Positions 10,281 to 57,702 of a stretch of 64,000 bases of DNA are shown here, in pieces. The position numbers were made by a program, and so were the translations under genes. This DNA comes from Nitrosopumilus sp. (GTDB taxonomy: Archaea; Thermoproteota; Nitrososphaeria; Nitrososphaerales; Nitrosopumilaceae). The DNA is taken from assembly GCA_965197525.1 (NCBI GenBank), contig OZ240211.1, forward strand, positions 1,088,001 through 1,152,000. Reading direction: 5' to 3'. Position 1 is the stretch's first letter. The number at the start of each line of letters is the position of its first letter. The notes beneath the pieces were generated by a model. That model was given only the letters and a program-made list of their open reading frames with translations. It was not told the DNA's origin and made no database searches.

Positions 10281-10292
10281 CTAACTAACATA

Positions 10293-11652: not shown

Positions 11653-11763
11653 GTGACTATAAACAACTCACATTCTCCACTTTTAATCTCCAATATTTAC
11701 AAAAATATTGTTTTTGATTTGTTTTTATTCATAAATATGAGAATTTAGCAAATTTTATTTTCT

Positions 11764-11870: not shown

Positions 11871-11937
11871 ACAAAATGGATTTAGGAAAAAGTACAATTC
11901 CATCTACTGGCTTACGTAATGAAGAGATTAGGCAGTA

Positions 11938-12237
11938 TTATTGTTCAGGAGATGGATTTATGCCGTCCATAGATTGTATGATGTAAGCGATTTTTCCCTT
12001 TATGACATGTTCTTCATCTACAATCTTTTTCTCTATGATTTCTGTGGATTGAGTAATATTCTTGCATTGTCTCTTGATATTACCCATGCAGTTAATGCTT
12101 GATTCAATATCCATGACGTTCTGCTTGACGGTCTTGGGATCAATGCCAAGTCGCTTGTCACTTGCAGAAACCGCTCTAATCCTTGCCCACTTGTACGCCA
12201 TCTCAATTATCCATATGTTTGCACCAGCATCAAACAA
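11938..12237 (-). pseudogene. Probable C-terminal fragment of a hypothetical protein
   Basis: Protein-like ORF (IEMAYKWAR...coiled-coil) with no recognisable N-terminus, lying among IS debris. Confidence 0.35.
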
Positions 12238-12502
12238 ACGTGTAAAGCAAAGCGTGTTGATTTAATCAGTATCATGCTAACAGTCTTGGATATAAATAGT
12301 TAAACGGTATATCATTGTATGTTGGGAACGTAGCATATTACGGCGTAAATCCGGGTCAAAACTATCCAATTACATTTTTGACTTTTCCTATTGGGCTAGT
12401 AACTGTGCGATTAAATTGACATTCGTGTGAAATGCCAAGATAGTTCTAGTTTACAAGCCTGTGTGAAAAAAATAAAGGCGTACAGATGGTGTTTGGAATG
12501 CA

Positions 12503-12529
12503 GATGATGATGATGATGATGATGATGAT
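12503..12529 (+). repeat. (GAT)9 microsatellite
   Basis: Nine exact GAT units, just downstream of the 12563-13573 gene. Confidence 0.9.
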
Positions 12530-12562
12530 TTACACAAAGATGTGATGATCAAGGCGCCTCAC

Positions 12563-16293: not shown

Positions 16294-16294
16294 C

Positions 16295-17872: not shown

Positions 17873-17874
17873 CG

Positions 17875-19125
17875 ATGTACTCGTTTGCACACCTCGCTGA
17901 CTGTCATCTGGGTTTTCAAAAGCAAGATAGGTTACAAGGATTGGAGCAAGAAGTGTTTGAGGATGTGTTGGATGTATGTATGAGAAGAAAGGTTGACTTT
18001 ATCCTGATTAGCGGCGACCTGTTCCACACCAGTCTTCCCGACATGAGGGTTGTGCGTTTTGCATTCAAGAAATTCAAAGAGGTGTATGAGAGAGGGATTC
18101 CAGTATATGTGGTGTACGGAAGTCACGACTATAGTGTAAACCATCACTCTGTAATTGATTTGCTGACTGATGTGGGGTATCTACAAAGGGCAGACAGGCA
18201 AAAAGACTTTACAGATAAATTGGAACTGGATTTTATTGTGGACTCTTCCACCGGAGCAAAGATTACAGGATTACCAGGAAGGACCACCAGTCTTGATAGA
18301 AGATACTATCAGAGTCTGGACAGGGACTCCCTGGAGAGAGAAAAAGGTTTTAAGATATTCCAGTTCCATATCGGAATTGACGAGCTGAAAACTAGAGGGA
18401 TGCCAGAGATGGATTCCATGCCCATGTCGCTGCTGCCAAGGAACTTTGATTACTATGCAGGAGGACACGTGCACACAAAAGTTATTGAGGACGGGTATGA
18501 CAACTATGGAACCATATCATACCCCGGAACAATGTTTGCAGGGCATCCGTCTGACTTTGAGTCAAGCGCACGCGGTGTGGAGCGCGGCTTTAACATTGTA
18601 AGTTTTGAGGATAAGATAACTGGAGTAGAGTTTGTGCCTACAAAACGTGTAGGATTCCAGATGGTAAGCGTGGATGCCAATGACAAGACGTCTGCTCGAG
18701 TGCAAGAAGAGATAGCAGACAAGGTGGAGAAGATTGACACAGAGGAGAAGATTGTAATTCTAAAGGTTGCAGGAGAGATGGCATCAGGAAAGACATCAGA
18801 GGTAGAGTTAACAAAGATTAGCGAGGAGTTAAAAGAGAATGGTGCGATAAACGTCGATATAAAGAGGAGCCAGTTCAGTTCAAAAGAGTACAACATTACT
18901 CCAGTAAAGGGGGAGAACAGGGAAGAGGTAATCAAGAATATCCTAGTTGAGAATATCGGAGAGGTAAAGATGGAACGACAAGAGCTGTCAGGTGACCAAG
19001 GTGTGGCATTAGCTCTAAAGCTGTTGCACAAGCTAAAGGAACCTAAAGGTGATGAGACTGTCAATGACTATGAGGAACGGGTAATACAGGATGCAAGAGA
19101 GTTGCTGGGGATTGATAGGGATTGA
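17875..19125 (+). CDS. mre11: Mre11 nuclease
   Basis: HLADCHLG, SGDLFH, GSHD and GGHVH phosphoesterase motifs. Confidence 0.95.
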   Translation: MYSFAHLADCHLGFQKQDRLQGLEQEVFEDVLDVCMRRKVDFILISGDLFHTSLPDMRVVRFAFKKFKEVYERGIPVYVVYGSHDYSVNHHSVIDLLTDVGYLQRADRQKDFTDKLELDFIVDSSTGAKITGLPGRTTSLDRRYYQSLDRDSLEREKGFKIFQFHIGIDELKTRGMPEMDSMPMSLLPRNFDYYAGGHVHTKVIEDGYDNYGTISYPGTMFAGHPSDFESSARGVERGFNIVSFEDKITGVEFVPTKRVGFQMVSVDANDKTSARVQEEIADKVEKIDTEEKIVILKVAGEMASGKTSEVELTKISEELKENGAINVDIKRSQFSSKEYNITPVKGENREEVIKNILVENIGEVKMERQELSGDQGVALALKLLHKLKEPKGDETVNDYEERVIQDARELLGIDRD

Positions 19126-39753: not shown

Positions 39754-41150
39754 ACTGCCAGCTTTTTCATCAGATATAAAACTCGTTCAGAGTCACCAAG
39801 TTTGAGTTTTTGACGTATATCAAAAAAATCACTAAATGCTTTCTCAAAGGTCTCCCCAGTATAATCAGCAAAGATATCCTCTCGTGTTACAAGTAATCTG
39901 CTTATCTGAGAGTCAGATTTTGGAATAAATTCAATTATCAAGAATCGGGATACTATTGTTTTAAAGAATGTGGCAATCCTATATAACGGAAGATTGTTGC
40001 TGATTGCCAAGTGATGTATCAGGGCCAAAGCCATAACCGTATCTGCAGGCCCTCTATCAACAAACGACTTTCTCTCTGAATTGGCCCACCCCACGCTGGG
40101 GCTAGGATTAGTCAAGTCAAGTAACAGTGGCAGAATATTAGCATCTCTATCTTTTTGTGCACTCAAAAAGTTCTGTTCCACTGCTGCAGGGTCAATGTCA
40201 AATGATACGGTAAAAATCCCTTTAGAGGTGGCAGTCCTACTAAACACACCAGTATTCGCACCTAGATCCCACACAACAGAGGGTTTTACATCATCGAGCC
40301 AATCAGATACAACCCTCTTTTTTTGCTCAAACCCCTGTTCAGAATAGTTCGTATCAGAGTAATAATCGGCCCATTGGGTCCCCTTGGGAGACCAATTCAA
40401 TTTTTGTATCCCGGAATGTAGACTGGAGACTAACCCAACGAACTGATTCTTGGACAATTTTTTCTGTTTTGCGATTTTGACTTTTTTATCCCCGTAATGT
40501 TTCTGACTTTTTGCATGGGCATGAATGTGTGCTAGCAACGAATATGAGAGAAACATCTTGGTAGGTAAAAGAGCACTTGCCATATCAAGTGGAATACCGT
40601 CTACATAGTTTCGTAGCAGTTGACTGAGGCGTATATCCTTGTGGGCCATCAATGCAAGGGGGGCAAGAAAATGAGAGCAGAACTGTTTGTACGCCTTCCA
40701 GATATCACCTTCCTTGTACATCTCAAAGGATAAAGTATCAATTAGAATGGGTTTACAGTCTTTGAATTGAATGTTGTATGCACTGCTGTCTTTTAGTGTC
40801 ATTCCAAAATCCATAGCAATGCTTTGAATCTCAAGTGTGGCTAGTGCAGCCTGTTTTAACTGGCTGAATGACCATTCGTAAGGATATGATACAAATGGAA
40901 TTATGGAGGGTTTGATTATTTTAAAAGACTTGTCTTTATTGTGAATGGGAGTAACAACATCTGATGTTTCGTGGGGTACAAGCAGGTGGGATTCCACTAG
41001 TTTCTCATAAAGACCAGAGGTCATCAGATGCTCATAATCTTCTTTGTAGGACGAGTTGATTTGGCGGTACAGCGTATCACCAGAATAAAATAAAAAGCCG
41101 CTGGGATCTCTAAAGGAACTGGGTTCAAAGTGGTGTGAGGGTACAGACAA
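39750..41150 (-). CDS. SAM-dependent methyltransferase, NoeA-like
   Basis: SFRDPSG, SYPYEWSF, VWDLGANTG, ALALIHHLAI. Confidence 0.8.
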   Translation of the reverse strand: MSVPSHHFEPSSFRDPSGFLFYSGDTLYRQINSSYKEDYEHLMTSGLYEKLVESHLLVPHETSDVVTPIHNKDKSFKIIKPSIIPFVSYPYEWSFSQLKQAALATLEIQSIAMDFGMTLKDSSAYNIQFKDCKPILIDTLSFEMYKEGDIWKAYKQFCSHFLAPLALMAHKDIRLSQLLRNYVDGIPLDMASALLPTKMFLSYSLLAHIHAHAKSQKHYGDKKVKIAKQKKLSKNQFVGLVSSLHSGIQKLNWSPKGTQWADYYSDTNYSEQGFEQKKRVVSDWLDDVKPSVVWDLGANTGVFSRTATSKGIFTVSFDIDPAAVEQNFLSAQKDRDANILPLLLDLTNPSPSVGWANSERKSFVDRGPADTVMALALIHHLAISNNLPLYRIATFFKTIVSRFLIIEFIPKSDSQISRLLVTREDIFADYTGETFEKAFSDFFDIRQKLKLGDSERVLYLMKKLAV

Positions 41151-41151
41151 T

Positions 41152-41367
41152 TTAGTTCTTGATGAATTTCTCTTTAATCTTGTGCCAATAAATCTTCAGA
41201 GTAATGCCAACGCCTGCTAGCGCGCCAATTAACATTTGAATTATCACACTTCCACTACCAGGGTCCAAGTATGCGTATGCCTCTGTAACAAAGAATCCTC
41301 GGAATAGTAGGGCTAACGTAAAGATAGGTAAAACAGTATAAAGATAGTTATGTGCTCTGATCATCAA
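41152..41367 (-). CDS. Small membrane protein with a YLDPGSGS motif
   Basis: Signal-like N-terminus, AYAYLDPGSGSVIIQML, one TM helix, basic tail; 1 bp from the next gene. Confidence 0.7.
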   Translation of the reverse strand: MMIRAHNYLYTVLPIFTLALLFRGFFVTEAYAYLDPGSGSVIIQMLIGALAGVGITLKIYWHKIKEKFIKN

Positions 41368-41793
41368 AGTGTAAAAAACTAGTAATTATTTAAACTATCA
41401 GTACAGACAAAGGTCCAAATTAGAATGATGTATTTCGAGACAAAAAGATATAGGAATTCAAGTAGAGAGTGTATCTGAACATAAAACAGAGCAAGTGACC
41501 TTAGGAGAGTGCAACTATATGTTTTGGCAGTCAACTTTTTGATGTAAATTTGAGCTAGTTTGCAACAAGTTATTGTGTTTTTACAAGGTTATAGCAGAAC
41601 TTGGTCTGCGATGATCCTAGATAAAAATTACAAGATGGTAGAAACTAGCTGTTGGCATCATTGATTATTTTTAATAATTCTAGAGACGTGCCGGCAGGAC
41701 AGTTAGACTGGTAGTATATGACATACATTTAATGTTACGTGTCAAGACAGACCCCATAGTGATATTTTTATTGATATAGTCAAAATGTGTGTT

Positions 41794-42712
41794 ATGAAGA
41801 TAATTCATGTAGGCTCTCATGCAGGCGTTCCTGGGATACTTGCCAAGTATCAGAGGGAGACGCATGATGTCGAACTAGTCTACAAGGATTTGGATATCCT
41901 GGGGGGACGTGCAGTTACTATGGATATACAGGATACAAGTCGTCCATTGACCCGTTGGTGCAAAGAGTGCGTATGTGGCGACACGGCAGGACATCAGAGA
42001 AGGTAGGTGGCGGGAACAGTGGTGGAATACAGCAAGGAAGACAGGTAGCCAACCACGGGTATCACAAAGAGATACGTAACAGGTGCAAAGGTTGCAAGGG
42101 GGTCATACATGTACATGGTGCGTATGCCCTCTTGCCAATGATTCGCAAGGTAGCCCCTGATGCGGGTATCGTTATTCATTATCATGGAACGGATCGTCGT
42201 ACAGGTAAACCAGAAGAGTTGGAGCGGTATGAGAGATACGCAGATTGTGTGCTGGTATCCACCACTGACTTGTTACAAAGATGATCATGCACAATGGGTT
42301 CGCAACCCGATAGACTTGGATCATTTCAAACAGGGTTGACAAACCAGAAGAGTGTGATACTGCATTGTGTATCGTGTGGCTGGCAACTGACACCAAAGAG
42401 GCAGCACGCAGGGAGTTGGACAGGGTACGGCCGGAACTGGGGTTACACTATCATAATAGGTTGGAGAGTCCGATACCATACAAGGACATGCCCCGGATGC
42501 TTGCACGGTACGGGTACTATTTGGATGTAAAGGGTTTGGGCGGGGCGTTGAACATGATTGCAAACTCTATGATCGGGTTGCAGGCGCAAGCTGTTGGCAG
42601 GCCTGTATTTTTTAACGGAAAGGTTGTTTGTGGGAAGCATGTGCTACATGACGGTAGCAAGGCGGTAGAACGGTTAGATGAAATATACAGTGGAATAAAA
42701 CGAAATCTGTAA
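41794..42712 (+). pseudogene. Frameshifted glycosyltransferase-like (GT-B) gene
   Basis: Consecutive fragments MKIIHVGSHAGVPGILAKYQ / IHYHGTD...VLVSTTDL / IPYKDMP...GLQAQAVG in different frames. Confidence 0.5.
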
Positions 42713-42950
42713 GCTAGATTTGATATTTAGGTGTATAAAACATCTTACTGTCTGTTGGTTTGTAAACGAGTAATATGACTTTAATTTATAGAATTTCCGA
42801 TAATAAGAGTAGGTTTACTGCAGTTGTTCCTCCTTCTGTGCATCTATTACAACCTGCTGTCATAGTGGAACGACGCAAAAAACACGTGTTGTGTGTCTAG
42901 CGTATGCTGTGCAACCATACAACGTTTTGACGCAAGATACATCTCATCAG

Positions 42951-43054
42951 ATCTTGCTGCAAAAAAAATCCGCCATATACAGGAAGTCAAAAGCAATAAA
43001 ATGCAGATAAAATGACATCCAATAGGCTTGAAAAACTAAGATTTGGATAACACC
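42951..43054 (+). repeat. 104-bp inverted repeat, left copy (3' end of an IS5-like element)
   Basis: 90/104 ungapped identity to the reverse complement of 47421-47524; encodes ...HIQEVKSNKMQIK* then a terminus. Confidence 0.85.
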
Positions 43055-43158
43055 ACACTTGAGCAAATTTTTATAACATGCCTGATTACTTTCCTACTTC
43101 TTTTCTACTTGTATCCAAGAGATTAGATAAGATCTTTCAGCGATAGTTTTAAACAAAT

Positions 43159-44328
43159 GTGATTTTCACGTCATATATGGATAATGAAACCGCTCCTTTT
43201 ACAGATTTGCCTCAAGCATTAGTAGAACAGATGTTCAGTGTTTCAAAAGAACTAGCTTCAGGGTTAGCTACGCATATTTCTCAAATTCAAAACAAGCGAG
43301 AAGATCTACGTACCAATCTTGAAGAGAGCATACGTCATGAATCAGAAATAATTGCGACGCAGCATTTTCCCACTACAGCTGGCGTGGATGGATCATATTG
43401 TGCAGATAAGCTTCTCGCAACAGATTTTGTAGCTATGGCAGCAGTTGCAGTAGAAGGATTAGTGCCACCAAAATTAAAAGAACCATTATGGCCTAAACCG
43501 CATCATTTCGTAAATGTTGAAAGTTTAACACATGATGAAGCAAGTTTGATTTGGGCAAAAGCTATAATGTTTTCAATGGAAGTTCAATTATCCGCATTAG
43601 CTCCACATGATGTAGTATTTCTAGATGGATCGTTAACGACCCTTTCAATTGCATTTAACCAAGCATTTGGACATTCTACTCCTGAAACATTACGTAATTT
43701 TTTGATAGAAGGAGATTTAAAAAAATATTCAGACGATAGAGAAAAATTTGCATCGGTTGAAATTACCTTGGAAAAATATAGTGAAATTTTGTCAGGAAAA
43801 CGAACAGACAAGATCACGGCAGCCATTCCAAAGTATAGTAGGCGAAATGAAATTTGTGAAAGTATTGGAATTTCAGATTATGATGACAGGGGACTGCTCT
43901 CACTAATTCTAAATCCAGGGGAGTTTACAAATCCTATGCCGATGATAAAAGAAGGGGGTGGAAAATGGTTCACTTCTAAATTACCAGAAACAGTAAGGAA
44001 GACTATCGAAGACATAGAGTATTTGTTGAGCCGTGCGTACGTAATTTATTATAAACCATTCAAACATTTTCCAGCAATTAGAATGGAAGTGAGTGAAACA
44101 GTAGCAAAAAATGATAATAGGTTAGCTATGCTGCTATCAGGGATAAGAGTGCAGTCTGGAACTCCAGGGATGATGGAACCATATCCAACTTATCTTGCAG
44201 ATAAAATGGTAAGACATCTCTCAACAGCGTTACCTGCAATGAAAGGCTTATCAATAACAGAAATAGCATCAGAATGGAAAGGCAACATAGGAGATGTGTA
44301 TTTATCCACACATAGTTACAGGACTTGA
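43159..44328 (+). CDS. NurA-domain nuclease (accessory copy)
   Basis: TAGVDGS and VVFLDGSL catalytic motifs, EPYPTYLAD; divergent from the canonical NurA. Confidence 0.85.
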   Translation: MIFTSYMDNETAPFTDLPQALVEQMFSVSKELASGLATHISQIQNKREDLRTNLEESIRHESEIIATQHFPTTAGVDGSYCADKLLATDFVAMAAVAVEGLVPPKLKEPLWPKPHHFVNVESLTHDEASLIWAKAIMFSMEVQLSALAPHDVVFLDGSLTTLSIAFNQAFGHSTPETLRNFLIEGDLKKYSDDREKFASVEITLEKYSEILSGKRTDKITAAIPKYSRRNEICESIGISDYDDRGLLSLILNPGEFTNPMPMIKEGGGKWFTSKLPETVRKTIEDIEYLLSRAYVIYYKPFKHFPAIRMEVSETVAKNDNRLAMLLSGIRVQSGTPGMMEPYPTYLADKMVRHLSTALPAMKGLSITEIASEWKGNIGDVYLSTHSYRT

Positions 44329-44332
44329 TATC

Positions 44333-46114
44333 ATGAACGATTTAGAACAAGCAGTGGATAACGGGGAAAAAATCGGAGTAATTGGTTCGCCGTCACGTAC
44401 TTCAAGACTGTCATTAGATATTTTGGGCACTGCCGTAGAAAAGCGATTAGTTGGGACAATTTCTGTTTTTAAATATAGACAGAACGATAGTGTGAATTTT
44501 GCATTGGGGCAAATTACAGAAGTGACTCTTTCAAATCAATTTGCACAAGACCCGATTATGAGGGGACTAATTAGACAGAGAGGAAGTGTAGAACCAATTA
44601 CAAAACAGCAGGATATTCACATGGCAGAAATGATGGTAAGTGCAGTTTTTGAGGAAAGCAATAAAGGATTAGAACAAAGCTCGCTAGATACAATTCCTTC
44701 CACAGGCACTCCAATTAAACTGATTAATCAAGACATCATGAGCCAAATTGTTGCACCATACGAAAAGGACCTTTCAATAGTTGGTAAAGTGTTTGGTAAT
44801 GAAGTGTTAATGCCTAGCTGGTTCAGACATTTTGGAAGAGCTTCAGAAGGCGGTATTGGTGATGCAATGCATTTAGGAATTTTTGGAAAAACAGGTTCAG
44901 GAAAATCAGTATTGGGGAAAATGATATTGTTGTCATATATGAAACACAAACCAATGTCTATTTTAATTTTAGACCCCCAAGGGGAATTTTCAAAAATGGC
45001 ATTAGATGAAGACGTTTCAAAATTTGTTAAAGAATATTGTGGAAAGGAAATAGAGGTATATGATTTATCCCGATTGCTTTTAGTTTCTAAACATGATCTT
45101 TTTAAAAAAATTTTAGTGTCTTCCAATTTTCTTAGAAAACTCGGTATAAAACATCTGGATAATCAAATGGATGGAGCAGAACAAATTTTAAGAATATTGT
45201 TGCACAAATATGGCCATGCAGTTTCAAGTTCAATAACTGGAGAAGTTAAAATTTGGAAGGCGTATTCGAGAGAAGTTTTTGATCACGTTTGGGAAAGAAT
45301 ACAACACGTAGCATCTGGTAGAGGACCAAATCCTGCACACCCAGTAATCGATCATATCTACACTGCTACAGATACTCGAAATAGAATTTTAAATACTATG
45401 GACAGTGCCAATGAGGATGAATTTTATGAGTTATGGAGAAATGTTTTACATTTATTTGGAAGAGAAAATAAATATGAAGTGACACGATTGGATAAAGTTT
45501 TAGAAACGATTGGAAATAAAAAAAATGGGAAAATTGTCATTGTTAATTTATCCGACAATGGTGTCCCCGACGAGCTATTTTGGAATGAAAGAAGTCAATC
45601 CATAGCAATAAACCACATTTTAGAGAATCTTGTAGATATTGCAAAGATGAAATACAACCAAGGAGGAGATCTCAACACACTTGTTGTATTGGATGAAGCA
45701 CATCGTTTTGCGCCACGCCGTATTGAAGTTGATGATGAAGAAATAGAAGAATTAAGGCATACTCTACGAGATGCAGTTAGAACGACCAGAAAATACAAAT
45801 TAGGATGGATGTTTATCAGTCAAACTTTGGCCAGTTTAGATAAGGAAATTATCAATCAGTTAAGGATGTATTTTTTTGGACATGGTCTTGCTTGGGGTAC
45901 GGAATTAGAGGCGTTACGACAGTTGATTGGAGGAAATTCATCGGCTCAGAAACTATATCAGCAGTTTAAAGATCCTGAAAGTAGCATAGGTGAAAAAAAA
46001 TATTCTTTTATGGGCATTGGGCCTTCATCACCCCTGTCATTCTCACAGGTGCCGTTATTCTTCAATTCATTAGATTTTCCAAAAGAATACTTATCAAATA
46101 ATAAAACGGAGTAG
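44333..46114 (+). CDS. HerA-like ATPase (accessory copy; ATG 44333 preferred over 44294)
   Basis: IGVIGSPS HAS-barrel start, GIFGKTGSGKS, LVVLDEAHRF, RTTRKYKLGWMFISQ. Confidence 0.9.
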   Translation: MNDLEQAVDNGEKIGVIGSPSRTSRLSLDILGTAVEKRLVGTISVFKYRQNDSVNFALGQITEVTLSNQFAQDPIMRGLIRQRGSVEPITKQQDIHMAEMMVSAVFEESNKGLEQSSLDTIPSTGTPIKLINQDIMSQIVAPYEKDLSIVGKVFGNEVLMPSWFRHFGRASEGGIGDAMHLGIFGKTGSGKSVLGKMILLSYMKHKPMSILILDPQGEFSKMALDEDVSKFVKEYCGKEIEVYDLSRLLLVSKHDLFKKILVSSNFLRKLGIKHLDNQMDGAEQILRILLHKYGHAVSSSITGEVKIWKAYSREVFDHVWERIQHVASGRGPNPAHPVIDHIYTATDTRNRILNTMDSANEDEFYELWRNVLHLFGRENKYEVTRLDKVLETIGNKKNGKIVIVNLSDNGVPDELFWNERSQSIAINHILENLVDIAKMKYNQGGDLNTLVVLDEAHRFAPRRIEVDDEEIEELRHTLRDAVRTTRKYKLGWMFISQTLASLDKEIINQLRMYFFGHGLAWGTELEALRQLIGGNSSAQKLYQQFKDPESSIGEKKYSFMGIGPSSPLSFSQVPLFFNSLDFPKEYLSNNKTE

Positions 46115-46119
46115 AACTG

Positions 46120-47337
46120 TTGATACGGCACCATCTTAATGTAGTGGATTTATTTGCAGGATGTGGAGCATTAAGTGCAGGATTTAACAATGTTGAAAAT
46201 AATCCATATAATGTTGTTTTGGCAAATGAAATCGATCCGCATGCAGCAAAGGCATATGAATTGAATCACCCTTCAACAGAAATGTTTTTGGATGACGTTA
46301 AACAATTAACTCAAAAAAAAATACGATTGATAACAGGATTAAAGAAAAATGAAATCGATGTAGTTATTGGCGGGCCGCCATGTCAAGGTTTTTCCGCAGC
46401 GGGCAATAGATTTGAAAACGACCCACGAAATAAATATTTTCTAGAATTTATAAGATTGATCAAAGAACTAAATCCTACAGTTTCAGTATTAGAAAATGTT
46501 CCTCAATTTCTGACTACAGCAAATGGCAGATACGCAAAAATATTTTCAAAATTAATGAGCAAACTTGGATATAAGACAAGAATCACAGTGTTATTAGCTA
46601 GTGACTACGGAATACCTCAAGTTAGAAAACGAGCTATTTGTATCTCTGTAAAAAACAATTTTAAAGATGAAATTACTTTTCCTGCACCCACTCATGAAAA
46701 AATTCTTAATGCACATTTAATTCAAAAAGGAAACCTTGAAGGAATCGCGCGTCAAGAAGATTCAAACCTAGAAAAGTTTGTATCAATTAGTGATACTATA
46801 GCGGATTTACCCAAATTAAATCCAAAAAATACAAATGAAACCAACTATTCAAAAAAGCCATTTTCAGATTATCAAAAAGAGCGAAGGAAAAAATCTAAAA
46901 ATATTTCTCATCACGAATACTGGGGACATTCTAAATTATTGTTAAAGTACATCTCAAAAATTCCTGAGGGTGGACGAATGATCGAAACATATTCGGAAGA
47001 CATGTGGAAAGGGAAAGGTTTCGGACAAGCTTATGGACGTTTACATAGAAATGGAGTAGGACAAACCATCACTACTTTCTTCCACAATCCTGGGTCTGGT
47101 CGTTTTATACACTATCGAGATTTACGTGCAATTTCAGTCAGAGAAGCAGCAAGAATTCAAGGATTTGACGATAATTTTATTTTTTATGGAAGTAAAACTC
47201 AACAAGAAAAACAAGTAGGTAATGCAGTACCTCCACTATTAGCACAAAAAATTGGAGAACATGTATATCAATCTATTTTTCTTAAAAAAACAGTACCTAT
47301 ACTGATAATCAAAAATTTATCGGTATGTAAATTTTAA
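46120..47337 (+). CDS. DNA (cytosine-5)-methyltransferase
   Basis: DLFAGCG, GGPPCQGFS, LENV, QVRKR, REAARIQGF, QVGNAVPP; TTG start 5 bp after the herA-like stop. Confidence 0.95.
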   Translation: MIRHHLNVVDLFAGCGALSAGFNNVENNPYNVVLANEIDPHAAKAYELNHPSTEMFLDDVKQLTQKKIRLITGLKKNEIDVVIGGPPCQGFSAAGNRFENDPRNKYFLEFIRLIKELNPTVSVLENVPQFLTTANGRYAKIFSKLMSKLGYKTRITVLLASDYGIPQVRKRAICISVKNNFKDEITFPAPTHEKILNAHLIQKGNLEGIARQEDSNLEKFVSISDTIADLPKLNPKNTNETNYSKKPFSDYQKERRKKSKNISHHEYWGHSKLLLKYISKIPEGGRMIETYSEDMWKGKGFGQAYGRLHRNGVGQTITTFFHNPGSGRFIHYRDLRAISVREAARIQGFDDNFIFYGSKTQQEKQVGNAVPPLLAQKIGEHVYQSIFLKKTVPILIIKNLSVCKF

Positions 47338-47420
47338 TAAACCGCAAACTGTATTGATCCCGGCATACCAAACTGATGTAACTATATGTGAAACAAGAAA
47401 GAAATTTAGATAGTAATCGG

Positions 47421-47524
47421 GGCGTTGTCCAAATCTTAGTTTTTCAAACCCATTGGATGTTATTTTATCTGCATTTTATTGCTTTTAACTTCCTGTATGT
47501 GATGGAATTTTCTCGTGGCAAGAT
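47421..47524 (-). repeat. 104-bp inverted repeat, right copy
   Basis: Reverse complement of 42951-43054 (90/104). Confidence 0.85.
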
Positions 47525-49390: not shown

Positions 49391-50107
49391 ATGCAACCTG
49401 ACAGCCCTCAACCAAGCGATCCTGCAATCACGAATCGACTGTCGCAGGCATGGGATGCGCTATATCGTAAAGGTAGATATCATGCAGAACACGCACTAGA
49501 CTTTACTGACGATATTCTAAAAGAGCTGCATGCCAATCCGGACCTGATTAGTGGTCGTGGACTCTATGTCGGGTGCGGGAATGGACGGAACTACTCCAAG
49601 CTAGCAGAGTCAGGATTGGATGTAACGGGACTGGATGTATCCGGGGTGGCACTAGCAGAGTTATCAAAAAGGTTACCACAGTACGCTGCCATGCTACACC
49701 AGTGTGATTTCTTGGATTACAGGCAAGAAGAACTGTTCCAATACGTCATAGCAATACAGGTATTCCAGCACGGGAACATGGACAGAGTAAACAGATATTT
49801 TGAAAAGGCATCCATGCTCCTAGAAAGAGACGGGCTGGTATTTCTACGCGTAAATGCCTCAAACACGGTAATACAATACGATCATGATGTAATTGAAGAG
49901 AATGATACCGTGGGATTTACCGTTCACTACATGGAAGGACCAAAGAAGGGATTGGATATACATTTCTTCTCCAAAGAAGAGATCTGTAGTCTTGTATCCA
50001 AAAACGATATGACTGTAGTACGGGAATTAAGAAATGTCACAACCAAACGAGTCTCTCCTCGTGTCGGCTCATGGTCACAGTGGGAACTGGTTGCAAGGAA
50101 GAATTAG
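49391..50107 (+). CDS. Class I SAM-dependent methyltransferase
   Basis: LYVGCGNGRN, GLDVS, CDFLD. Confidence 0.85.
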   Translation: MQPDSPQPSDPAITNRLSQAWDALYRKGRYHAEHALDFTDDILKELHANPDLISGRGLYVGCGNGRNYSKLAESGLDVTGLDVSGVALAELSKRLPQYAAMLHQCDFLDYRQEELFQYVIAIQVFQHGNMDRVNRYFEKASMLLERDGLVFLRVNASNTVIQYDHDVIEENDTVGFTVHYMEGPKKGLDIHFFSKEEICSLVSKNDMTVVRELRNVTTKRVSPRVGSWSQWELVARKN

Positions 50108-50924: not shown

Positions 50925-52589
50925 CTACATGGTAGCCTGTGAGGCCTCGTGGAACATTTGTGACTTTGCACATCCTGCAGCTAGTTCATCACCTGCACCG
51001 CGTCTCATAAGACCACGGTACAAACCATCCTCTAGTTTGACGCCTTCGCGTTCCTCCCATTCCTCGACAGTAATGGAGTATTTCTTTTGGATTCTGTCCC
51101 TGTACCACTCTGGTATCACGTTAAACGCACAGAACGGTACGATACGCAAGTCAGGTGTAAGATAATGAATATCACATCTTTGTAACCGCTCCAAGTCCTC
51201 GTTGTATTTGTCCTGAAAATGCATCATGCCCAAGAACAATCCTTTGACGTGCCAAGAGCCTACTGAATCAAACGATCTCTTCATCAGGATGTTACCGAAC
51301 ATCTTGGCCAAATCAAGACCGGCAGGCTGTTTCTTTGTATCAACAAATCCCTTTAGTTTACGGACTACCTCTAACATTGTAAAATACTTGTTTTTACCAG
51401 AACGAATCTCTTCTGCCTTATCTTCAAATAACTCTAACATTCCCTGGATATCACAAAACTTTGTCAATGGTACAAATTTCTTGGTATCTGCATCCTCAAA
51501 GATGTATGTGCCGGCACCACAGGCAAAGTGTATAGACAGCTCGTACTTTGGTTTACTAGAGAATGCTTCAATAACATTGGTCAGAGGCATACAGCTAGGA
51601 ACAGGGAACCAGTCATCGACTGTAACCTCGCCTGCAGTCTGCTCTTCAATTCTTTGGATACAGTCAGGTATTGTAATACGGTATTTTTCACGTTCCGATT
51701 TACCCATACGACCAGTAAGAGAGACAGGTTGAAAGTTGACTGCGTGTACTACATCCATGTTCTTTTGTGCATAGCGAATAATACCGCCCAACTCGTGATC
51801 ATTAATTGATTTGATTACAGTGGGTACAAACACCACGGTAGTACCGGTCTTGCGACAGCTATCCAGAGCGTACGGAATCTCCCAGTGATTCTTGGGATTT
51901 GTTCTTGCAGTCACACCGTCAAACGACAGATACAGATTGTTACAGCCAGCCAGCCTAACCTCACGTGCGGCTTCTGGATCCATTGCATGTCTGATACCGT
52001 TTGTGTTCATCTGGATGTGGTCAACACCCTCCTCCTTCATTATTTTTATAACATCTGCAATATCCTCACGCAACATGGGTTCACCACCAGTAATCTGCAT
52101 GGAATTACCAGGGATTGGTCTCTCTGCACGCAGCGTCTTCATCATTGCACGAATCTGTGTATGGTCAGGCTCGTACATGTATGCGCCTTCTAACCCTTTC
52201 TTTACATAAAAGAAACAGTACCAGCAAGTCAAGTCACAACGGTTAGTCACTATCATGTTTGCAAGACCGCTATGTGACAAATGATTAGAACATAGACCAC
52301 AGTTATTAGGACAGGAACATTTGTCAATCAATACGTTTGGGGCATGGGCACCCTTGCCGTCCATCCAGTATGTACTGAACTTGTTATACATATCAAAAGA
52401 GCCAAAGTACAGTTCCTCGCATTCGCCGTGTGTCGGACATGTCTTGGTCATAAACACCTTGCTGTCACGCTCAAAGACTTCGGCATCCAGTATCATGTTG
52501 CAGTCAGGACAGATACTCTGTGTAAAACGTATAGTAGATTTCTTTCCCAGATTTTTGACACTCTGGTTGGATATCTGAATTAGCGCCAT
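50925..52589 (-). CDS. tes: Tetraether lipid synthase (Tes / GDGT-MAS, MJ0619 family radical SAM)
   Basis: N-terminal CPDC...CPTH, CPNNCGLC, NRCDLTCWYC (CxxxCxxC), TGGEP, FQPVSLTGR, GMMHFQD, RCDIHY...VPFC. Confidence 0.9.
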   Translation of the reverse strand: MALIQISNQSVKNLGKKSTIRFTQSICPDCNMILDAEVFERDSKVFMTKTCPTHGECEELYFGSFDMYNKFSTYWMDGKGAHAPNVLIDKCSCPNNCGLCSNHLSHSGLANMIVTNRCDLTCWYCFFYVKKGLEGAYMYEPDHTQIRAMMKTLRAERPIPGNSMQITGGEPMLREDIADVIKIMKEEGVDHIQMNTNGIRHAMDPEAAREVRLAGCNNLYLSFDGVTARTNPKNHWEIPYALDSCRKTGTTVVFVPTVIKSINDHELGGIIRYAQKNMDVVHAVNFQPVSLTGRMGKSEREKYRITIPDCIQRIEEQTAGEVTVDDWFPVPSCMPLTNVIEAFSSKPKYELSIHFACGAGTYIFEDADTKKFVPLTKFCDIQGMLELFEDKAEEIRSGKNKYFTMLEVVRKLKGFVDTKKQPAGLDLAKMFGNILMKRSFDSVGSWHVKGLFLGMMHFQDKYNEDLERLQRCDIHYLTPDLRIVPFCAFNVIPEWYRDRIQKKYSITVEEWEEREGVKLEDGLYRGLMRRGAGDELAAGCAKSQMFHEASQATM

Positions 52590-54061: not shown

Positions 54062-55546
54062 TCACGAGTTTAACTGTTCTGCATAACGCATACACTGCAT
54101 CCCCTCATCCCCTCTGCCAAGACTGAGAAGTGCGGTACCTTTGGATACATACGCATACTGGTCTTTAGGATCTATCTCCAAACACTTGTCATAGAATGAA
54201 ATTGCCTCTTCAGGCATTCCAAGGGAAAGGTGGATGTTTGCTTTGCGGAGATATGCTCCCGAACTCATAGGGTTCAATCTCAAGGCATCATCGCAGCATT
54301 GGAGCGCTTTTTCATACATCTCAAGATCTTCAAGCGAGCTTGCCTTGTAAAGATGTGGATAGATATGGTTTGGATCCATACCTATAGCCTTGTCATAGAA
54401 CTGGACTGCTTTTTCATACATTCCAAGTTGGTCAAAGACGATCCCCTTGTGGATGCACGCATCTGCATGTTTTGAATCTATCTCTAGGGCTTTATCATAA
54501 CAGTGTAATGCCTTTTTATGCATGCCAAGTTCTGTAAAAGAATGGCCTTTCCAAAAGTATGCATCAGCGTCACTCGAATCTAGCTCTATTGCCTTGGCAT
54601 AGTACGGTATTGCCTCCTTGTGTCTGTGAAGAAAGTGAAGTGTATATGCCTTCTCGAAATACGCGTTGTTGGTTGGTTCTATCTGCAGGGACCTGTCAAA
54701 ACATTTGAGTGCCAGCTCGTATAGGGCCAGTTTTTGAAGCAAGGCTCCTTTTTGGGCATGCAGGTTACAGTCACTGGCAAAATTATCCGGATCAAGATCC
54801 ATGGCCCTGTCGTAGCATTCGATTGCCTGTCTGTGTAAATCCAACGCTGCAAGGGAATGTCCCTTTGATACGTACGCGGAACTATAACTAGGATCAAGAT
54901 CCAGACATTTGTCATAGTACTCGATTGCGTCGTTGTGCAATCCTAGTTTTGCAAGCGATTTTCCCTTGGATTGGTATGCAGGATGGTATTTGGGATCAAG
55001 CTCCAGACATTTGTCATAGTACTCGATTGCGTCGTTGTGCAATCCTAGTTTTGCAAGCGAATATCCCTTGCAGAAATACAGGTAGCCATCATCATGTATG
55101 TGGTCTAAGCATCGACTATAGCACTCAATTGCCTGGCCGTGTAGATGCAGTGCTGCAAATAAGTGCCCCTGAATCACATGTGAATCAATATGATCGGGAT
55201 CAAGCTCTATGGCCTGTTCAACAAATTGGATTGCTTTTTTATAACGCCCAAGTGCATAAAGCGAGTTTGCCTTGTTGTAATAGGCATGACTGCTGTCAGG
55301 GGACAGTTTTAAAACATTCTCATAGCACCGTATTGCTTTTTTGTACTCGCCAAGACTATAGAGTGAGTTTCCTTTTTTGTTGTGTATGTCTGCATTATCA
55401 GGATTTGCTTTCAGGGATTTGTCATAGAATGTGACTGCTTTTTTATGCATGCCGCATTTGGCAAACTCATAACCGGTGGATGCAAGGATATCACTCTCAT
55501 GTATTTTGTGATCCTCAGGCATGTATTTTGTTTGGTTGTTTGTCAT
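54062..55546 (-). CDS. Tetratricopeptide repeat protein
   Basis: About 13-14 repeats of 34 aa (KG..L..LG...A..YDK.L.LDP); exact 59-bp duplication at 54900/55002. Confidence 0.9.
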   Translation of the reverse strand: MTNNQTKYMPEDHKIHESDILASTGYEFAKCGMHKKAVTFYDKSLKANPDNADIHNKKGNSLYSLGEYKKAIRCYENVLKLSPDSSHAYYNKANSLYALGRYKKAIQFVEQAIELDPDHIDSHVIQGHLFAALHLHGQAIECYSRCLDHIHDDGYLYFCKGYSLAKLGLHNDAIEYYDKCLELDPKYHPAYQSKGKSLAKLGLHNDAIEYYDKCLDLDPSYSSAYVSKGHSLAALDLHRQAIECYDRAMDLDPDNFASDCNLHAQKGALLQKLALYELALKCFDRSLQIEPTNNAYFEKAYTLHFLHRHKEAIPYYAKAIELDSSDADAYFWKGHSFTELGMHKKALHCYDKALEIDSKHADACIHKGIVFDQLGMYEKAVQFYDKAIGMDPNHIYPHLYKASSLEDLEMYEKALQCCDDALRLNPMSSGAYLRKANIHLSLGMPEEAISFYDKCLEIDPKDQYAYVSKGTALLSLGRGDEGMQCMRYAEQLNS

Positions 55547-56049
55547 TTAAAATCATTTCTAGATCATCAAGGTATGATATTTGCATGACGTAACAAGTAA
55601 TGTATTGGTCAGCCAAATACAGGCATGTTCGGTTTCCAAACCAGATAAACTGCGATGAAACGGACTGTGTGGTATTTTACCCAAATTCAGTGTGTATATA
55701 TACAGAAATATTTGCGTTCTCAAAGACACATCCTCGCAAGATGATAGGGCGTGTGATAATTGGGTAATATTTTATGGATACGATAACCCCTATCAAAAAA
55801 AACCATACAATTACAGTCGGTATTTGGATGACTGCAAGCGCAAACATTTAACGAAAGAGAGAGAGAAACCAAGATCGACACCCGTATAAAAAAAACAGGC
55901 GCGCACGTATCCTCTTTATCATTCCTATGAGCGGATAGATGAAGCGCAGTCAGACTGGGATCAAATCAAGAAGTGAACGGTTATTAAAAAAAATACCGGC
56001 GTCAAAAAAAACACGATATCTGAATGACAGATAACAGTTTACATACTGA

Positions 56050-57702
56050 CTATCGCATCTCCAACCGTCTTGCATAATCAGCACACCGTTCTGCCTCATC
56101 ATGCATGCCAAGCTCTTGAAATGCAAACCCCTTGAAGACATATGCAAGATGGTTATCTGGATCGATCTCCAGGCATCTGTCATAGTATTCTATTGCCTTC
56201 TCCGGCATGCCAAGTTTAAAAAATGCGTATCCTTTGCTGAGATGCGCTCGTACATTCACGGGATCCAGGCTCAGGCATTTATCGTAACATTTCATTGATT
56301 CACCATACATGTTAAATTTTGTAAGTGTGTCCCCCTTACGGACATACGTATCGGCATGATTTGGATCCAGTTCTATGGATCTGTCGTAGCATTCGATTGC
56401 CTTGTCATACATGCCAAGGACATCAAATGTAGATCCCTTGTAGGCAAACGTAACTGGATCAGTCGGGTCTAGACGTACGGCATTGTCGTAGCATTCGATT
56501 GCTTTTTGAGGCATGTCAAGGTCTACAAACAAGGACCCCTTGGCTATATGTGCAGCGATACTGGCGGGATCTATCTCTAGCGCCCTGTTGTAGCATTTTA
56601 GTGCTTTTTTATGCATGTCAAGTGCCGCAAGCGAATTACCCTTCTCGACATACGAATCGACGTAGTTTGGGTCTAGTTTGATGGCCTGGTCAAAGCATTC
56701 GATTGCTTGTCTGTGCACCCCAAGGGCTGCAAGCTCTGTTGCCTTGTTAAAATAGGTAGTACCGTCATCGGGATTTAGTTTCAGGGATTTGTCGTAGCAC
56801 TCGATTGCTTGTTTATGCAGGTGTAGATGTGAAAGCGAGAGTCCCTTGTGGATATATACGTCAGTGTTGTTGGGATCGGGTTTCAGGGATTTGTCGTAGC
56901 ACTCGATTGCTTGTTTATGCAGATCAAGATCTTCAAACGAGATTCCCTTGTACATGTATGTATAAGTGTTGTTGGGATCGAGTTCCAGGGATTTGTCGTA
57001 GCACTCGATTGCTTGTTTATGCAGGTGTAGATGTGAAAGCGAGAGTCCCTTGTTGATATATGTATCAGTGCTGTCGGGATCGAGTTCCAGAGATTTGTCG
57101 TAGCACTCGATTGCTTGTTTATGCATGAGCAGTGCCGCATATGAGGATCCTTTATTCTGATGCGCGTAGGCATTGTTTGGATCGATTTTTAAGGATTTAT
57201 CATAGAATTCGATGGACTTTTTGTATAGACCAAGTTCAAGATATGAACGTCCTATGGCCATATACATAGTGGTATCAGTGGGATCGAGTTTCAAACATCT
57301 CTCGTAGCATTGTATTGCCTTTTTATACATGCCAAGTGAAGAAAACGAGTATCCTTTTCGAAAATCGACGTCAAACATAATTGGAATTTGATCTGAAACC
57401 TTGTCGTAACACTGTATCGTTTTTTCGTACATGCCTAGTTCAAAAAACGAGTGTCCCTTGTGCAGATTGGCATTGAGATCGTGGGGATCTATTTTTAAAA
57501 TCTTGTCAAAGGATTTTATTGCCTGCTCGTGTATGCCACGGTCTGCAAGGTCAAGGCCAGCAGATAGTAAGTCGTAGAGTGTCTGGGCCTTGTCGCTAAT
57601 AGTGCCGTTATCAGGCAACACGTCTTTTGCTGGATCTTCTTTTTTCATCTGATAGTAGAGGGACCGGTTGCCATATTTGATGGTATGGTAATACTTGCAC
57701 AA
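56050..57702 (-). CDS. Tetratricopeptide repeat protein
   Basis: About 14 TPRs; identical 34-bp cores at 56786, 56888, 56990 and 57092 (102-bp period). Confidence 0.9.
   Translation of the reverse strand: MCKYYHTIKYGNRSLYYQMKKEDPAKDVLPDNGTISDKAQTLYDLLSAGLDLADRGIHEQAIKSFDKILKIDPHDLNANLHKGHSFFELGMYEKTIQCYDKVSDQIPIMFDVDFRKGYSFSSLGMYKKAIQCYERCLKLDPTDTTMYMAIGRSYLELGLYKKSIEFYDKSLKIDPNNAYAHQNKGSSYAALLMHKQAIECYDKSLELDPDSTDTYINKGLSLSHLHLHKQAIECYDKSLELDPNNTYTYMYKGISFEDLDLHKQAIECYDKSLKPDPNNTDVYIHKGLSLSHLHLHKQAIECYDKSLKLNPDDGTTYFNKATELAALGVHRQAIECFDQAIKLDPNYVDSYVEKGNSLAALDMHKKALKCYNRALEIDPASIAAHIAKGSLFVDLDMPQKAIECYDNAVRLDPTDPVTFAYKGSTFDVLGMYDKAIECYDRSIELDPNHADTYVRKGDTLTKFNMYGESMKCYDKCLSLDPVNVRAHLSKGYAFFKLGMPEKAIEYYDRCLEIDPDNHLAYVFKGFAFQELGMHDEAERCADYARRLEMR

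What the first reader, a model, noticed from the sequence alone, without database searches (positions are those of the whole stretch)
43159..47337. NurA-HerA-C5 methyltransferase operon: candidate restriction-modification-like defence system with a NurA/HerA effector
Seen in sequence: three co-oriented genes separated by 4 and 5 bp. They encode a NurA nuclease (VDGS/LDGS intact), a HerA ATPase (Walker A/B intact) and a complete C5 cytosine methyltransferase. There is no conventional restriction endonuclease or Vsr nearby, no mre11/rad50 attached, and the DNA is visibly more AT-rich than the repair operon. Established: NurA-HerA normally resects DNA ends with Mre11-Rad50, and that canonical operon is already present at 15-21.6 kb, so this pair is redundant for repair. 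HerA ATPases also power anti-phage systems such as Sir2-HerA and DUF4297-HerA. Inference: the methyltransferase marks self while the NurA-HerA nuclease-translocase destroys unmethylated or end-exposed foreign DNA. I do not know of this tripartite system being characterised.
Basis: partly seen in the sequence, partly recalled or inferred. Interest (0 to 1): 0.85.

Follow-up and report, generated by a model that had tools for sequence, protein, structure and literature searches.

The report
Methylase-coupled NurA-HerA mobile defence cassette
An ammonia-oxidising archaeon carries, besides its normal DNA-repair nurA-herA genes, a second and very divergent nurA-herA pair fused into one mobile operon with a cytosine DNA methylase; it is most likely an untested restriction-modification-like immune system, in which the methylase takes the place that a Druantia DruA protein holds in related cassettes.

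Summary
Three co-oriented genes, 4 and 5 bp apart, encode a NurA-fold nuclease (43177-44328), a HerA ATPase (44333-46114) and a complete C5 methyltransferase (46120-47337). The canonical nurA-herA-mre11-rad50 operon lies at 15154-21563.

The second pair is not a repair duplicate:
- It shows no BLASTP similarity to the canonical copies.
- It was found in 3 of 200 same-family genomes and 0 of 16 same-genus genomes.
- IS5-like end remnants flank it.
- It recurs at 94% DNA identity in an unrelated context.

The methylase link is real but confined to one clade. Ten Nitrososphaerota loci keep the triad, and methylase divergence tracks NurA/HerA divergence. Five of the ten have Vsr alongside. In the wider family (80 loci) the pair is never methylase-linked except in one locus. 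At least 56 of those loci carry DruA (DUF4338) instead, and others have no third gene.

No PADLOC model matches the nuclease, and I found no paper describing the triad. The closest characterised analogue is TdpABC, a modification gene plus a HerA/NurA-like restriction complex.

Function is inferred, not shown. This scan had already noted DruA-NurA-HerA and methylase-linked NurA/HerA cassettes on other DNA.

The parts
42817..43054 (+). Left flank: a 238-bp remnant of one end of an IS5-like (DDE_Tnp_1) element, with its terminus pointing into the cassette.
   Evidence: It is 82-88% identical to four other copies in the genome, and similarity stops sharply at 43054. The intact copy L099 encodes a DDE_Tnp_1 transposase.
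43147..43154 (+). TTTTAAAC, a TATA-like box centred about 26 nt upstream of the nurA2 ATG. It is a candidate promoter of a leaderless operon transcript (inference).
   Evidence: Read directly from the sequence. It lies inside the block conserved at 94% with L108, which begins at 43134.
43177..44328 (+). nurA2: a divergent NurA-fold nuclease of 383 aa (the ORF is open from GTG 43159).
   Evidence: Pfam NurA scores 24.2 bits. The fold aligns to solved NurA structures at Z 12-14 and to TdpB at Z 10.1. D71 and D150 are invariant in the family. BLASTP finds no similarity to the canonical NurA (E 1.1).
44333..46114 (+). herA2: a HerA-family ATPase of 593 aa.
   Evidence: Pfam DUF87/HerA scores 53.6 bits. 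Walker A and B motifs are present. A family profile hits HerA structures, including TdpA, only weakly. A HerA2 homologue lies directly next to NurA2 in 79 of 80 related loci.
46120..47337 (+). C5 cytosine DNA methyltransferase of 405 aa, with a TTG start.
   Evidence: PF00145 scores 254 bits, and all catalytic motifs are present. Every orthologue (52-95% identity) whose context I read lies directly after herA2.
47421..47524 (-). Right flank: a 104-bp remnant of the same IS end, inverted, with its terminus pointing into the cassette.
   Evidence: It forms an inverted repeat with 42951-43054, 87% complementary and 4366 nt apart. Copies occur elsewhere in the genome.

Best explanation
The cassette is a mobile, three-gene defence unit that works like a restriction-modification system. 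The C5 methyltransferase methylates a short motif throughout the host chromosome. NurA2 and HerA2 form an ATP-driven translocase-nuclease that threads and shreds DNA lacking that mark, such as virus or plasmid DNA.

Shown here: gene identity, intact catalytic motifs, operon coupling, co-inheritance of the three genes, movement as a unit, accessory distribution, and defence-island and IS neighbourhoods.

Inferred: that the two proteins form a complex as canonical HerA-NurA does; that 5-methylcytosine blocks loading, translocation or cutting (by analogy with TdpAB, whose action I recall as being blocked by phosphorothioate); and that the target is invading DNA.

In the wider family the same nuclease-motor pair is combined with DruA instead of the methylase. 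I therefore read the third gene as an exchangeable marking or sensing module.
For: 1. It is not a repair paralogue.
- BLASTP finds no similarity to the canonical copies.
- tblastn with the window's Mre11 and Rad50 gave no hit, and no other recurrent family except DruA turned up, within +/-8 kb in 80 related loci.
- It was found in 3 of 200 other same-family genomes and 0 of 16 same-genus genomes.

2. The triad is kept.
- Ten distinct loci hold it: the window, L108, L087, L088, L089, L093, L094, L105, L109 and L110.
- herA2 and the methylase overlap or lie 5 bp apart.

3. The three genes are co-inherited.
- Methylase identities of 95, 70, 66, 60, 57 and 52% follow NurA2 identities of 96, 78, 79, 70, 57 and 58%.
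- The triad rows form one clade on the NurA2 tree (SH-aLRT 94).
- Starting from the methylase instead, every orthologue context I read is a triad.

4. It moves as a unit. L108 shares 94.2% DNA identity over exactly window 43134-47299, with unrelated flanks. IS-end inverted repeats flank the window's copy.

5. The methylase appears active in vivo. Vsr, which repairs the T:G mismatches left by 5mC deamination, lies next to 5 of the 10 triads.

6. The neighbours are defence and mobile genes: OLD-like, KAP NTPase, SNF2-PLD, HsdR, HNH, SIR2 and transposases.

7. The decay pattern fits a restriction nuclease. herA2 is broken by an IS in L105 and frameshifted in L093, while the methylase is intact in all ten loci.

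8. There is a within-genome contrast. The only other PF00145 methylase in the genome sits beside a classical EcoO109I/TdeIII-like endonuclease.

9. There is precedent.
- NurA2 matches TdpB of the TdpAB complex at Z 10.1, and the HerA2 profile hits TdpA. tdpABC is described as a phosphorothioate R-M system (PMC12914056).
- T. kodakarensis HerA-NurA degrades both strands and is proposed to act in defence (PMC12977600).
- MADS combines methylation with the MAD7-MAD8 ATPase-nuclease module (PMC13662399); PADLOC's mad8 model hits HerA2.
Against: - There is no experiment, no methylome and no expression data.
- The methylase link has a single origin, so its recurrence is maintenance, not repeated independent association.
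- In the wider family the pair has no methylase (1 of 80 loci). About 20 archaeal loci show no recurrent third gene at all. The nuclease-motor is therefore not intrinsically lethal without a marking enzyme.
- Neither NurA2 nor HerA2 has an evident methyl-reading or sequence-reading domain.
- In L007 the nearby non-orthologous methylase is in three fragments while nurA2-herA2 look intact.
- The L093 frameshift could be an assembly error, since that contig has 4x coverage.
Confidence: 0.5

Rival explanations
1. Two independent modules share one transcript. NurA2-HerA2 is a stand-alone nuclease that destroys any DNA with free ends, in the manner of RecBCD. The methylase, with Vsr, is a solitary or anti-restriction methylase that shields the mobile cassette or its host from other restriction systems. 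Methylation does not gate the nuclease.
For: - Many archaeal relatives carry the pair with no third gene.
- T. kodakarensis HerA-NurA digests dsDNA from ends regardless of end structure (PMC12977600).
- Three clade members have unrelated C5 methylases nearby that belong to other systems: R.HinP1I plus Vsr in L092, and a GHKL ATPase in L095 and L007.
- No methyl-reading domain was found.
Against: - This methylase orthologue group was seen only after herA2, in every context read.
- It overlaps herA2 by 1-11 bp in several loci and has co-diverged with it down to about 52% identity.
- It travels with the pair when the flanks change.
- A free-riding methylase would be expected to turn up in other contexts too.
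Confidence: 0.22
2. It is a second DNA repair or recombination machine: a horizontally acquired end-processing complex that backs up or specialises the canonical HerA-NurA-Mre11-Rad50 pathway. Methylation would serve strand or age discrimination.
For: - NurA fold and HerA family membership.
- Bacterial NurA-HerA pairs without Mre11-Rad50 exist and have been studied in repair (D. radiodurans complex, PDB 7f6d).
- Vsr is a repair enzyme.
Against: - The distribution is patchy (3 of 200 same-family genomes).
- The setting is IS-flanked and mobile.
- The neighbours are defence-island genes.
- Relatives link the pair to DruA, a Druantia defence protein.
- The genes are lost by IS insertion.
- The similarity to D. 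radiodurans NurA is weaker (Z 8.5) than to archaeal NurA.
Confidence: 0.1
3. It is the maintenance or addiction module of a mobile element. The methylase and the nuclease-motor act like a post-segregational killing pair that stabilises the IS-bounded cassette or a larger island, with defence as a by-product at most.
For: - The structure resembles a composite transposon.
- Transposases lie next to most triads.
- Type II R-M systems are known to behave as addiction modules (general knowledge).
Against: - This is mechanistically the same as the best explanation (methylation protects, the nuclease kills), so it differs only in what selection acts on.
- herA2 is readily lost while the methylase stays.
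- Only 5 relatives were found in 2.9 million viral contigs, and all with readable upstream sequence are of the DruA type.
Confidence: 0.08

Closest known systems
TdpABC, the phosphorothioate-based restriction-modification system of thermophiles (PDB 8wet, 8wfd; PMC12914056)
   Same: One modification gene plus a HerA-like ring ATPase (TdpA) and a NurA-fold nuclease (TdpB). NurA2 aligns to TdpB at Z 10.1 and the HerA2 profile hits TdpA at 28 bits. Both are three-gene systems.
   Different: The mark here would be 5-methylcytosine made by a PF00145 enzyme, not phosphorothioate made by TdpC. Sequence similarity is marginal. That the modification blocks TdpAB is my recollection of the primary paper, which I could not read here.
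DruA-NurA-HerA cassette
   Same: The NurA2 and HerA2 families are orthologous (36-48% identity), always adjacent and in the same order. The cassette is mobile and patchily distributed.
   Different: The window has no DruA; a C5 methylase follows herA2 instead. DruA and the methylase never co-occur in the loci I read.
Druantia types I and II (DruABCDE and DruM-F-G-E; Doron et al. 2018)
   Same: The same two alternative accessory genes appear: DruA (DUF4338) in type I and a C5 methylase, DruM, in type II. PADLOC's DruM models match the window's methylase at E 2e-84.
   Different: There is no DruE/YprA helicase and none of DruB, C, D, F or G; the effector here is NurA-HerA. Generic type II methylase models match the methylase better than DruM does (E 4e-99).
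Canonical archaeal HerA-NurA-Mre11-Rad50 operon (present at 15154-21563)
   Same: NurA fold and HerA family, adjacent and co-oriented genes, and presumably a hexamer-dimer translocase-nuclease.
   Different: No sequence similarity is detectable by BLASTP. There is no mre11/rad50 linkage. The pair is accessory rather than core, and it is linked to a methylase.
Sir2-HerA, DUF4297-HerA and MADS (MAD7-MAD8) defence systems
   Same: A HerA-type ATPase coupled to an effector in anti-phage defence. MADS also uses methylation for self-marking. PADLOC HerA and mad8 models hit HerA2 at 40-49 bits.
   Different: The effector is NurA, not Sir2 or DUF4297. MADS has eight genes and uses m6A. NurA2 matches no PADLOC model.
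Type II restriction-modification with a Dcm-type methylase and Vsr
   Same: A C5 methylase with all motifs, Vsr alongside in half of the triads, and mobile, addiction-like behaviour.
   Different: There is no site-specific endonuclease. An ATP-dependent processive nuclease-motor stands in its place.

Membership tests
NurA nuclease (PF09376) | Profile match above the curated threshold | tested here: met
   24.2 bits against a cut-off of 21. Many homologues carry precomputed PF09376 hits.
NurA nuclease (PF09376) | NurA (RNase-H-like) fold | tested here: met
   Z is 14.1 to 2ygk, 14.0 to 9x1m and 12.8 to 3tai. The next unrelated folds score 5.4 or less. Model pLDDT is 77, and the segment around D71 is poorly modelled.
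NurA nuclease (PF09376) | Conserved acidic catalytic residues | tested here: inconclusive
   D71, E93, E135, D150 and D342 are invariant in 24 homologues. I did not map them residue by residue onto a solved active site.
HerA/FtsK-type ATPase (PF01935) | Profile match, Walker A and Walker B | tested here: met
   53.6 bits. Walker A is GKTGSGKS at residue 185 and Walker B is LVVLDE at residue 450. The family profile hits HerA structures 9c1m, 8wiv, 8xau, 9x1l, 8wet and 4d2i.
HerA/FtsK-type ATPase (PF01935) | Hexameric ring with an N-terminal HAS barrel that binds the nuclease | not tested
   I did not fold HerA2. Complex formation with NurA2 is assumed from family behaviour.
C5 cytosine DNA methyltransferase (PF00145) | Motifs I (FxGxG), IV (PCQ), VI (ENV), VIII (QxRxR), IX and X (GNAVP) | tested here: met
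   254 bits. The motifs are visible in the alignment to DNMT1 and bacterial methylases, and are invariant in 30 homologues.
Canonical archaeal HerA-NurA-Mre11-Rad50 repair system | Linkage to mre11 and rad50, and core (near-universal) distribution in the lineage | tested here: not met
   tblastn found no Mre11 or Rad50, and no recurrent neighbour apart from DruA turned up, in 80 loci. The pair was found in 3 of 200 same-family genomes. The canonical operon lies elsewhere in the window.
Type II restriction-modification system | A site-specific restriction endonuclease next to the methylase | tested here: not met
   Only three genes lie between the inverted repeats, and none matches an endonuclease family. 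By contrast, the methylase at 872-2053 has an EcoO109I/TdeIII-like neighbour.
DruA-NurA-HerA cassette (unnamed) | A DruA (PF14236) gene adjacent to the pair | tested here: not met
   No DruA cluster member lies within about 8 kb either side of the pair in the window. DruA is present in at least 56 of 80 wider-family loci.
Druantia (types I-III) | The DruE (YprA/DUF1998) helicase | tested here: not met
   None of the five cassette-region proteins hits DruE or any other Druantia-specific model except the methylase, which hits DruM.
TdpABC | A HerA-like TdpA and a NurA-fold TdpB | tested here: met
   Z is 10.1 to 8wfd chain G, and the profile hit to 8wet TdpA is E 7e-6. This is a family-level resemblance only.
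TdpABC | The TdpC phosphorothioate-forming enzyme | tested here: not met
   The third gene is a PF00145 methylase.
MADS | The eight-gene mad1-8 set with an m6A methylase | tested here: not met
   Only mad8 (42.7 bits, to HerA2) matches, plus a weak generic mad2 hit to an unrelated SAM methyltransferase at 49391-50107.

The most novel reading that the evidence does not exclude
NurA2-HerA2 may be the common effector of a widespread, undescribed class of restriction systems. In this class restriction is not site-specific cutting but processive, ATP-driven shredding, which a covalent self-mark stops much as Chi stops RecBCD. The mark-writing gene would be exchangeable: a C5 methylase in ammonia-oxidising archaea and DruA (a GNAT-like protein) in most bacteria. 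This mirrors the DruA/DruM alternation of Druantia types I and II. If so, DruA is itself a DNA- or chromatin-marking enzyme, and the function of Druantia's signature protein becomes testable.
Probability: 0.2. Interest if true: 0.85.

Novelty: new variant of a known kind. Interest (0 to 1): 0.62.

Why it matters
- **Defence in an important group.** Ammonia-oxidising archaea are globally important, and their antiviral defences are barely studied. This would be a compact, mobile immune cassette of theirs.
- **A cleaner reading of the wider family.** The cassette places a well-understood enzyme, a C5 methylase, exactly where a widespread cassette carries DruA, whose role in Druantia is unknown. 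That gives a concrete hypothesis for DruA and for how a NurA-HerA shredder tells self from non-self.
- **Support for a current proposal.** It adds genomic support to the recent suggestion that archaeal HerA-NurA complexes act in defence as well as in repair.

Tried and rejected
- **Complex prediction.** I predicted the methylase against NurA2 plus the HerA2 N-terminus. The job returned no answer (score 0.00), which is not evidence either way.
- **Sequencing runs.** No RNA holder was listed for the cassette, so I could not check co-transcription or expression, and I laid no reads.
- **PDB sequence searches.** The NurA2 profile and the single HerA2 sequence found nothing. Only the fold search and the HerA2 profile reached known structures.
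- **Vsr in the window.** tblastn and a whole-genome Pfam search found no Vsr or Vsr remnant in or upstream of the cassette.
- **Upstream gene-poor stretch (41150-42817).** I tested whether it is a decayed copy of the IS transposase. There was no tblastn hit, so it remains unexplained.
- **RNA genes and CRISPR near the cassette.** None were found.
- **Methylase target from genome composition.** GGCC, CCWGG and GATC are under-represented. The genome has a second methylase with its own endonuclease, and I had no control genome, so no target can be assigned.
- **A conserved third partner in the DruA-less archaeal loci.** I looked and found none.
- **Neighbours of the sister lineage L106/L107.** I abandoned this because high GC produces too many spurious ORFs.
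- **Literature.** Searches for NurA/HerA with methyltransferase, DUF4338, DruA or anti-phage returned no description of this triad.

Full report
**1. What is there**

The window comes from a 2.21-Mb single-contig genome of an ammonia-oxidiser-type archaeon. Its nearest named relatives are Nitrosotenuis and Nitrosarchaeum.

Three + strand genes lie at 43177-44328, 44333-46114 and 46120-47337. The gaps between them are 4 and 5 bp. Pfam assigns them as follows:
- NurA, 24.2 bits against a cut-off of 21.
- HerA/DUF87, 53.6 bits.
- C5 DNA methylase, 254 bits.

Because the NurA score is marginal, I folded the protein with a 24-sequence alignment (pLDDT 77).
- It aligns to solved NurA structures at Z 14.1 (S. 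solfataricus), 14.0 (T. kodakarensis) and 12.8 (P. furiosus).
- It aligns to TdpB of the TdpAB complex at Z 10.1 and to D. radiodurans NurA at Z 8.5.
- Unrelated RNase-H-like folds such as Argonaute and EndoV score 5.4 or less.

The other motifs are intact.
- The aspartates of the VDGS and LDGS motifs are invariant across the family.
- HerA2 has intact Walker A and B motifs.
- The methylase has all catalytic motifs, including PPCQ and ENV.

The canonical nurA-herA-mre11-rad50 operon is at 15154-21563.

**2. The pair is not a repair duplicate**

- NurA2 and HerA2 share no BLASTP-detectable similarity with the canonical copies beyond the P-loop.
- A search of 200 other genomes of the same family found NurA2 in only 3, and in none of 16 same-genus genomes.
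- The whole stretch from 34 to 50.9 kb has no DNA match in 20 same-genus genomes. The genes from 50.9 kb onward are conserved at 77-78%.
- The three genes lie between inverted remnants of one end of an IS5-like element: 238 bp at 42817-43054 and 104 bp at 47421-47524. This element has seven end copies in the genome and a DDE_Tnp_1 transposase.
- A metagenomic contig (L108) carries the same three genes at 94.2% DNA identity over exactly window 43134-47299. Its flanks are unrelated to the window's. The cassette therefore moves, or is retained, as a unit.

**3. The wider family**

A genome-collection scan found 223 relatives of NurA2, and I kept the best 80 with flanks.
- A HerA2 homologue follows NurA2 directly in 79 of the 80 loci; the remaining contig is cut off.
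- De novo clustering of flanking ORFs revealed one further recurrent gene, which Pfam and PADLOC identify as DruA (DUF4338, PF14236). This is the signature protein of type I Druantia.
- DruA is present in at least 56 of the 80 loci. It lies upstream in bacteria (Chloroflexota, Poribacteria and others) and downstream in several archaea.
- All four virus-collection relatives with readable upstream sequence also carry DruA.
- The window's methylase family appears in only 1 of the 80 loci (L007).
- No Mre11 or Rad50 was detected in any of them.
- About 20 archaeal loci (Asgard, Bathyarchaeota, Methanoculleus) have no recurrent third gene. One Nitrososphaeraceae locus has a plain GNAT acetyltransferase in the DruA position.

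**4. The methylase link is real within one clade**

The closest NurA2 relatives (51-96% identity, mostly metagenomic Nitrososphaerota) tell a different story.
- Ten distinct loci carry NurA2-HerA2-methylase in the same order: the window, L108, L087, L088, L089, L093, L094, L105, L109 and L110.
- In these loci herA2 and the methylase overlap by 1-11 bp or lie 5 bp apart.
- Methylase identity to the window's copy falls in step with NurA2 and HerA2 identity. Close pairs of loci are close in all three genes: L093/L094 at 84, 75 and 77%, and L087/L088 at 86, 83 and 76%.
- On a NurA2 tree the triad rows form one clade (SH-aLRT 94) inside a Nitrososphaerota clade (SH-aLRT 100).
- I also searched from the methylase side. 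Its orthologue group (52-95% identity, then a gap down to 47% and below) maps onto contigs that, wherever I read them, are again triads.
- Vsr, the enzyme that repairs T:G mismatches left by 5mC deamination, lies next to five of the ten triads. This suggests that the methylase is active on the chromosome.

Three further clade members have non-orthologous C5 methylases (24-30% identity) 1.3-3.5 kb away. These belong to other arrangements: R.HinP1I plus Vsr in L092, and a GHKL ATPase in L095 and L007.

The flanks of the triads are rich in transposases and defence-type genes: OLD-like, KAP NTPase, SNF2-PLD, HsdR, HNH and SIR2.

The caveat is that the operon-type link arose once. What is observed is maintenance over considerable divergence and across changing contexts, not repeated convergence.

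**5. Mechanism**

I commit to an R-M-like reading at about 0.5.
- The methylase marks the host chromosome.
- NurA2-HerA2, presumably a ring ATPase feeding DNA to a NurA dimer as in solved complexes, degrades DNA that lacks the mark.

Four things support this beyond linkage.
- **Decay pattern.** herA2 is interrupted by an IS630-like element in G083 and frameshifted in L093, while the methylase is intact in all ten loci.
- **Within-genome contrast.** The only other PF00145 methylase in this genome sits beside a classical EcoO109I/TdeIII-like endonuclease.
- **Precedent.** tdpABC is a modification-based system whose TdpAB complex has a HerA-like ATPase (TdpA) and a NurA-fold subunit (TdpB) (PMC12914056). 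MADS combines methylation with the MAD7-MAD8 ATPase-nuclease module (PMC13662399), and PADLOC's mad8 model hits HerA2 at 42.7 bits. T. kodakarensis HerA-NurA shreds both strands and has been proposed to act in defence (PMC12977600).
- **A parallel swap.** The alternation of DruA and a C5 methylase as third gene mirrors Druantia type I (DruA) and type II (DruM). The PADLOC model names and hits show this.

Four things count against it.
- Stand-alone pairs exist.
- No methyl-reading domain is evident.
- In L007 the neighbouring methylase is fragmented while the pair looks intact.
- There is no functional data at all.

A weaker variant fits the stand-alone pairs. The complex may attack DNA ends in general, and methylated sites may act as a stop signal that spares the host chromosome.

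Rivals, with my confidence in each:
- Two independent modules on one transcript (0.22).
- A second repair machine (0.10).
- An addiction module of the mobile element (0.08).

**6. Comparison and novelty**

- NurA2 matches no PADLOC model, and HerA2 matches only generic HerA and mad8 models.
- My literature searches found no description of a NurA-HerA-methylase or a DruA-NurA-HerA system.
- DUF4338 has been read as a GNAT-like acetyltransferase (PMC10853773).
- The cassette is best filed as a new variant of a known kind: modification-dependent restriction, with the effector architecture of TdpAB.

This scan had already noted the following, all on other DNA:
- DruA-NurA-HerA cassettes: 29 notes in at least 24 genomes.
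- Several methylase-linked NurA/HerA-like cassettes.
- The inverted repeats around this very cassette.

I had derived the DruA link independently before reading those notes. I re-tested the inverted repeats myself.

What this locus adds:
- The orthologous nuclease-motor pair of the DruA cassette carries a C5 methylase instead in Nitrososphaerota.
- The methylase has co-diverged with the pair.
- There is direct evidence that the three genes travel together.

Noticed in passing
window 3-2053: A classical type II R-M pair. An EcoO109I/TdeIII-like endonuclease (cut by the window start) is followed by a second C5 methylase at 872-2053, then an IS (DDE transposase, 2311-3576).
   Followed up: partly
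window 15154-21563: The canonical nurA-herA-mre11-rad50 operon, tightly packed and with higher GC (0.43-0.46) than its surroundings.
   Followed up: partly
window 4911-8964 (- strand): An SNF2-family helicase with DUF3670 (1045 aa) is followed by a SWIM zinc-finger protein (303 aa). This pairing is common in defence-like contexts.
   Followed up: no
window 41150-42817: A 1.7-kb stretch with no ORF longer than 115 aa and GC of 0.39-0.45. It holds no RNA family, tRNA or repeat, and it is not a decayed copy of the IS transposase. Unexplained.
   Followed up: partly
window 21600-50900: A large low-GC island of sugar-nucleotide and glycan genes, IS scars and the cassette. The part searched (34-50.9 kb) has no DNA match in 20 same-genus genomes. 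Conserved genes resume at the radical-SAM gene (50925-52589).
   Followed up: partly
whole genome (G000): GGCC (O/E 0.65), CCWGG (0.64-0.68) and GATC (0.72) are under-represented against a maximal-order Markov expectation. The genome has no Vsr. These may reflect methylase or restriction targets, but I could not assign them.
   Followed up: partly
L105 (G083) 9878-12799: In a same-family genome herA2 is split by an IS630-like (DDE_3) insertion, while nurA2 and the methylase stay intact. A type I HsdR gene lies directly upstream and an IS66 transposase downstream.
   Followed up: yes
L007 11126-14544 and L095 10632-13604: Downstream of nurA2-herA2 lies a different C5 methylase paired with a GHKL (HATPase_c_3) ATPase, plus Vsr in L007. 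In Nitrosotenuis chungbukensis (L007) this methylase is in three fragments.
   Followed up: partly
L069 6641-7624: A Nitrososphaeraceae locus has an ordinary GNAT acetyltransferase (PF00583) directly upstream of nurA2, in the position DruA usually holds.
   Followed up: no
window 47279-47421: Between the methylase stop and the right IS remnant lies another short repeat, with copies elsewhere in the genome at 88-92% identity.
   Followed up: no
window 54062-57702 (- strand): Two large tandem TPR-repeat proteins (494 and 550 aa).
   Followed up: no
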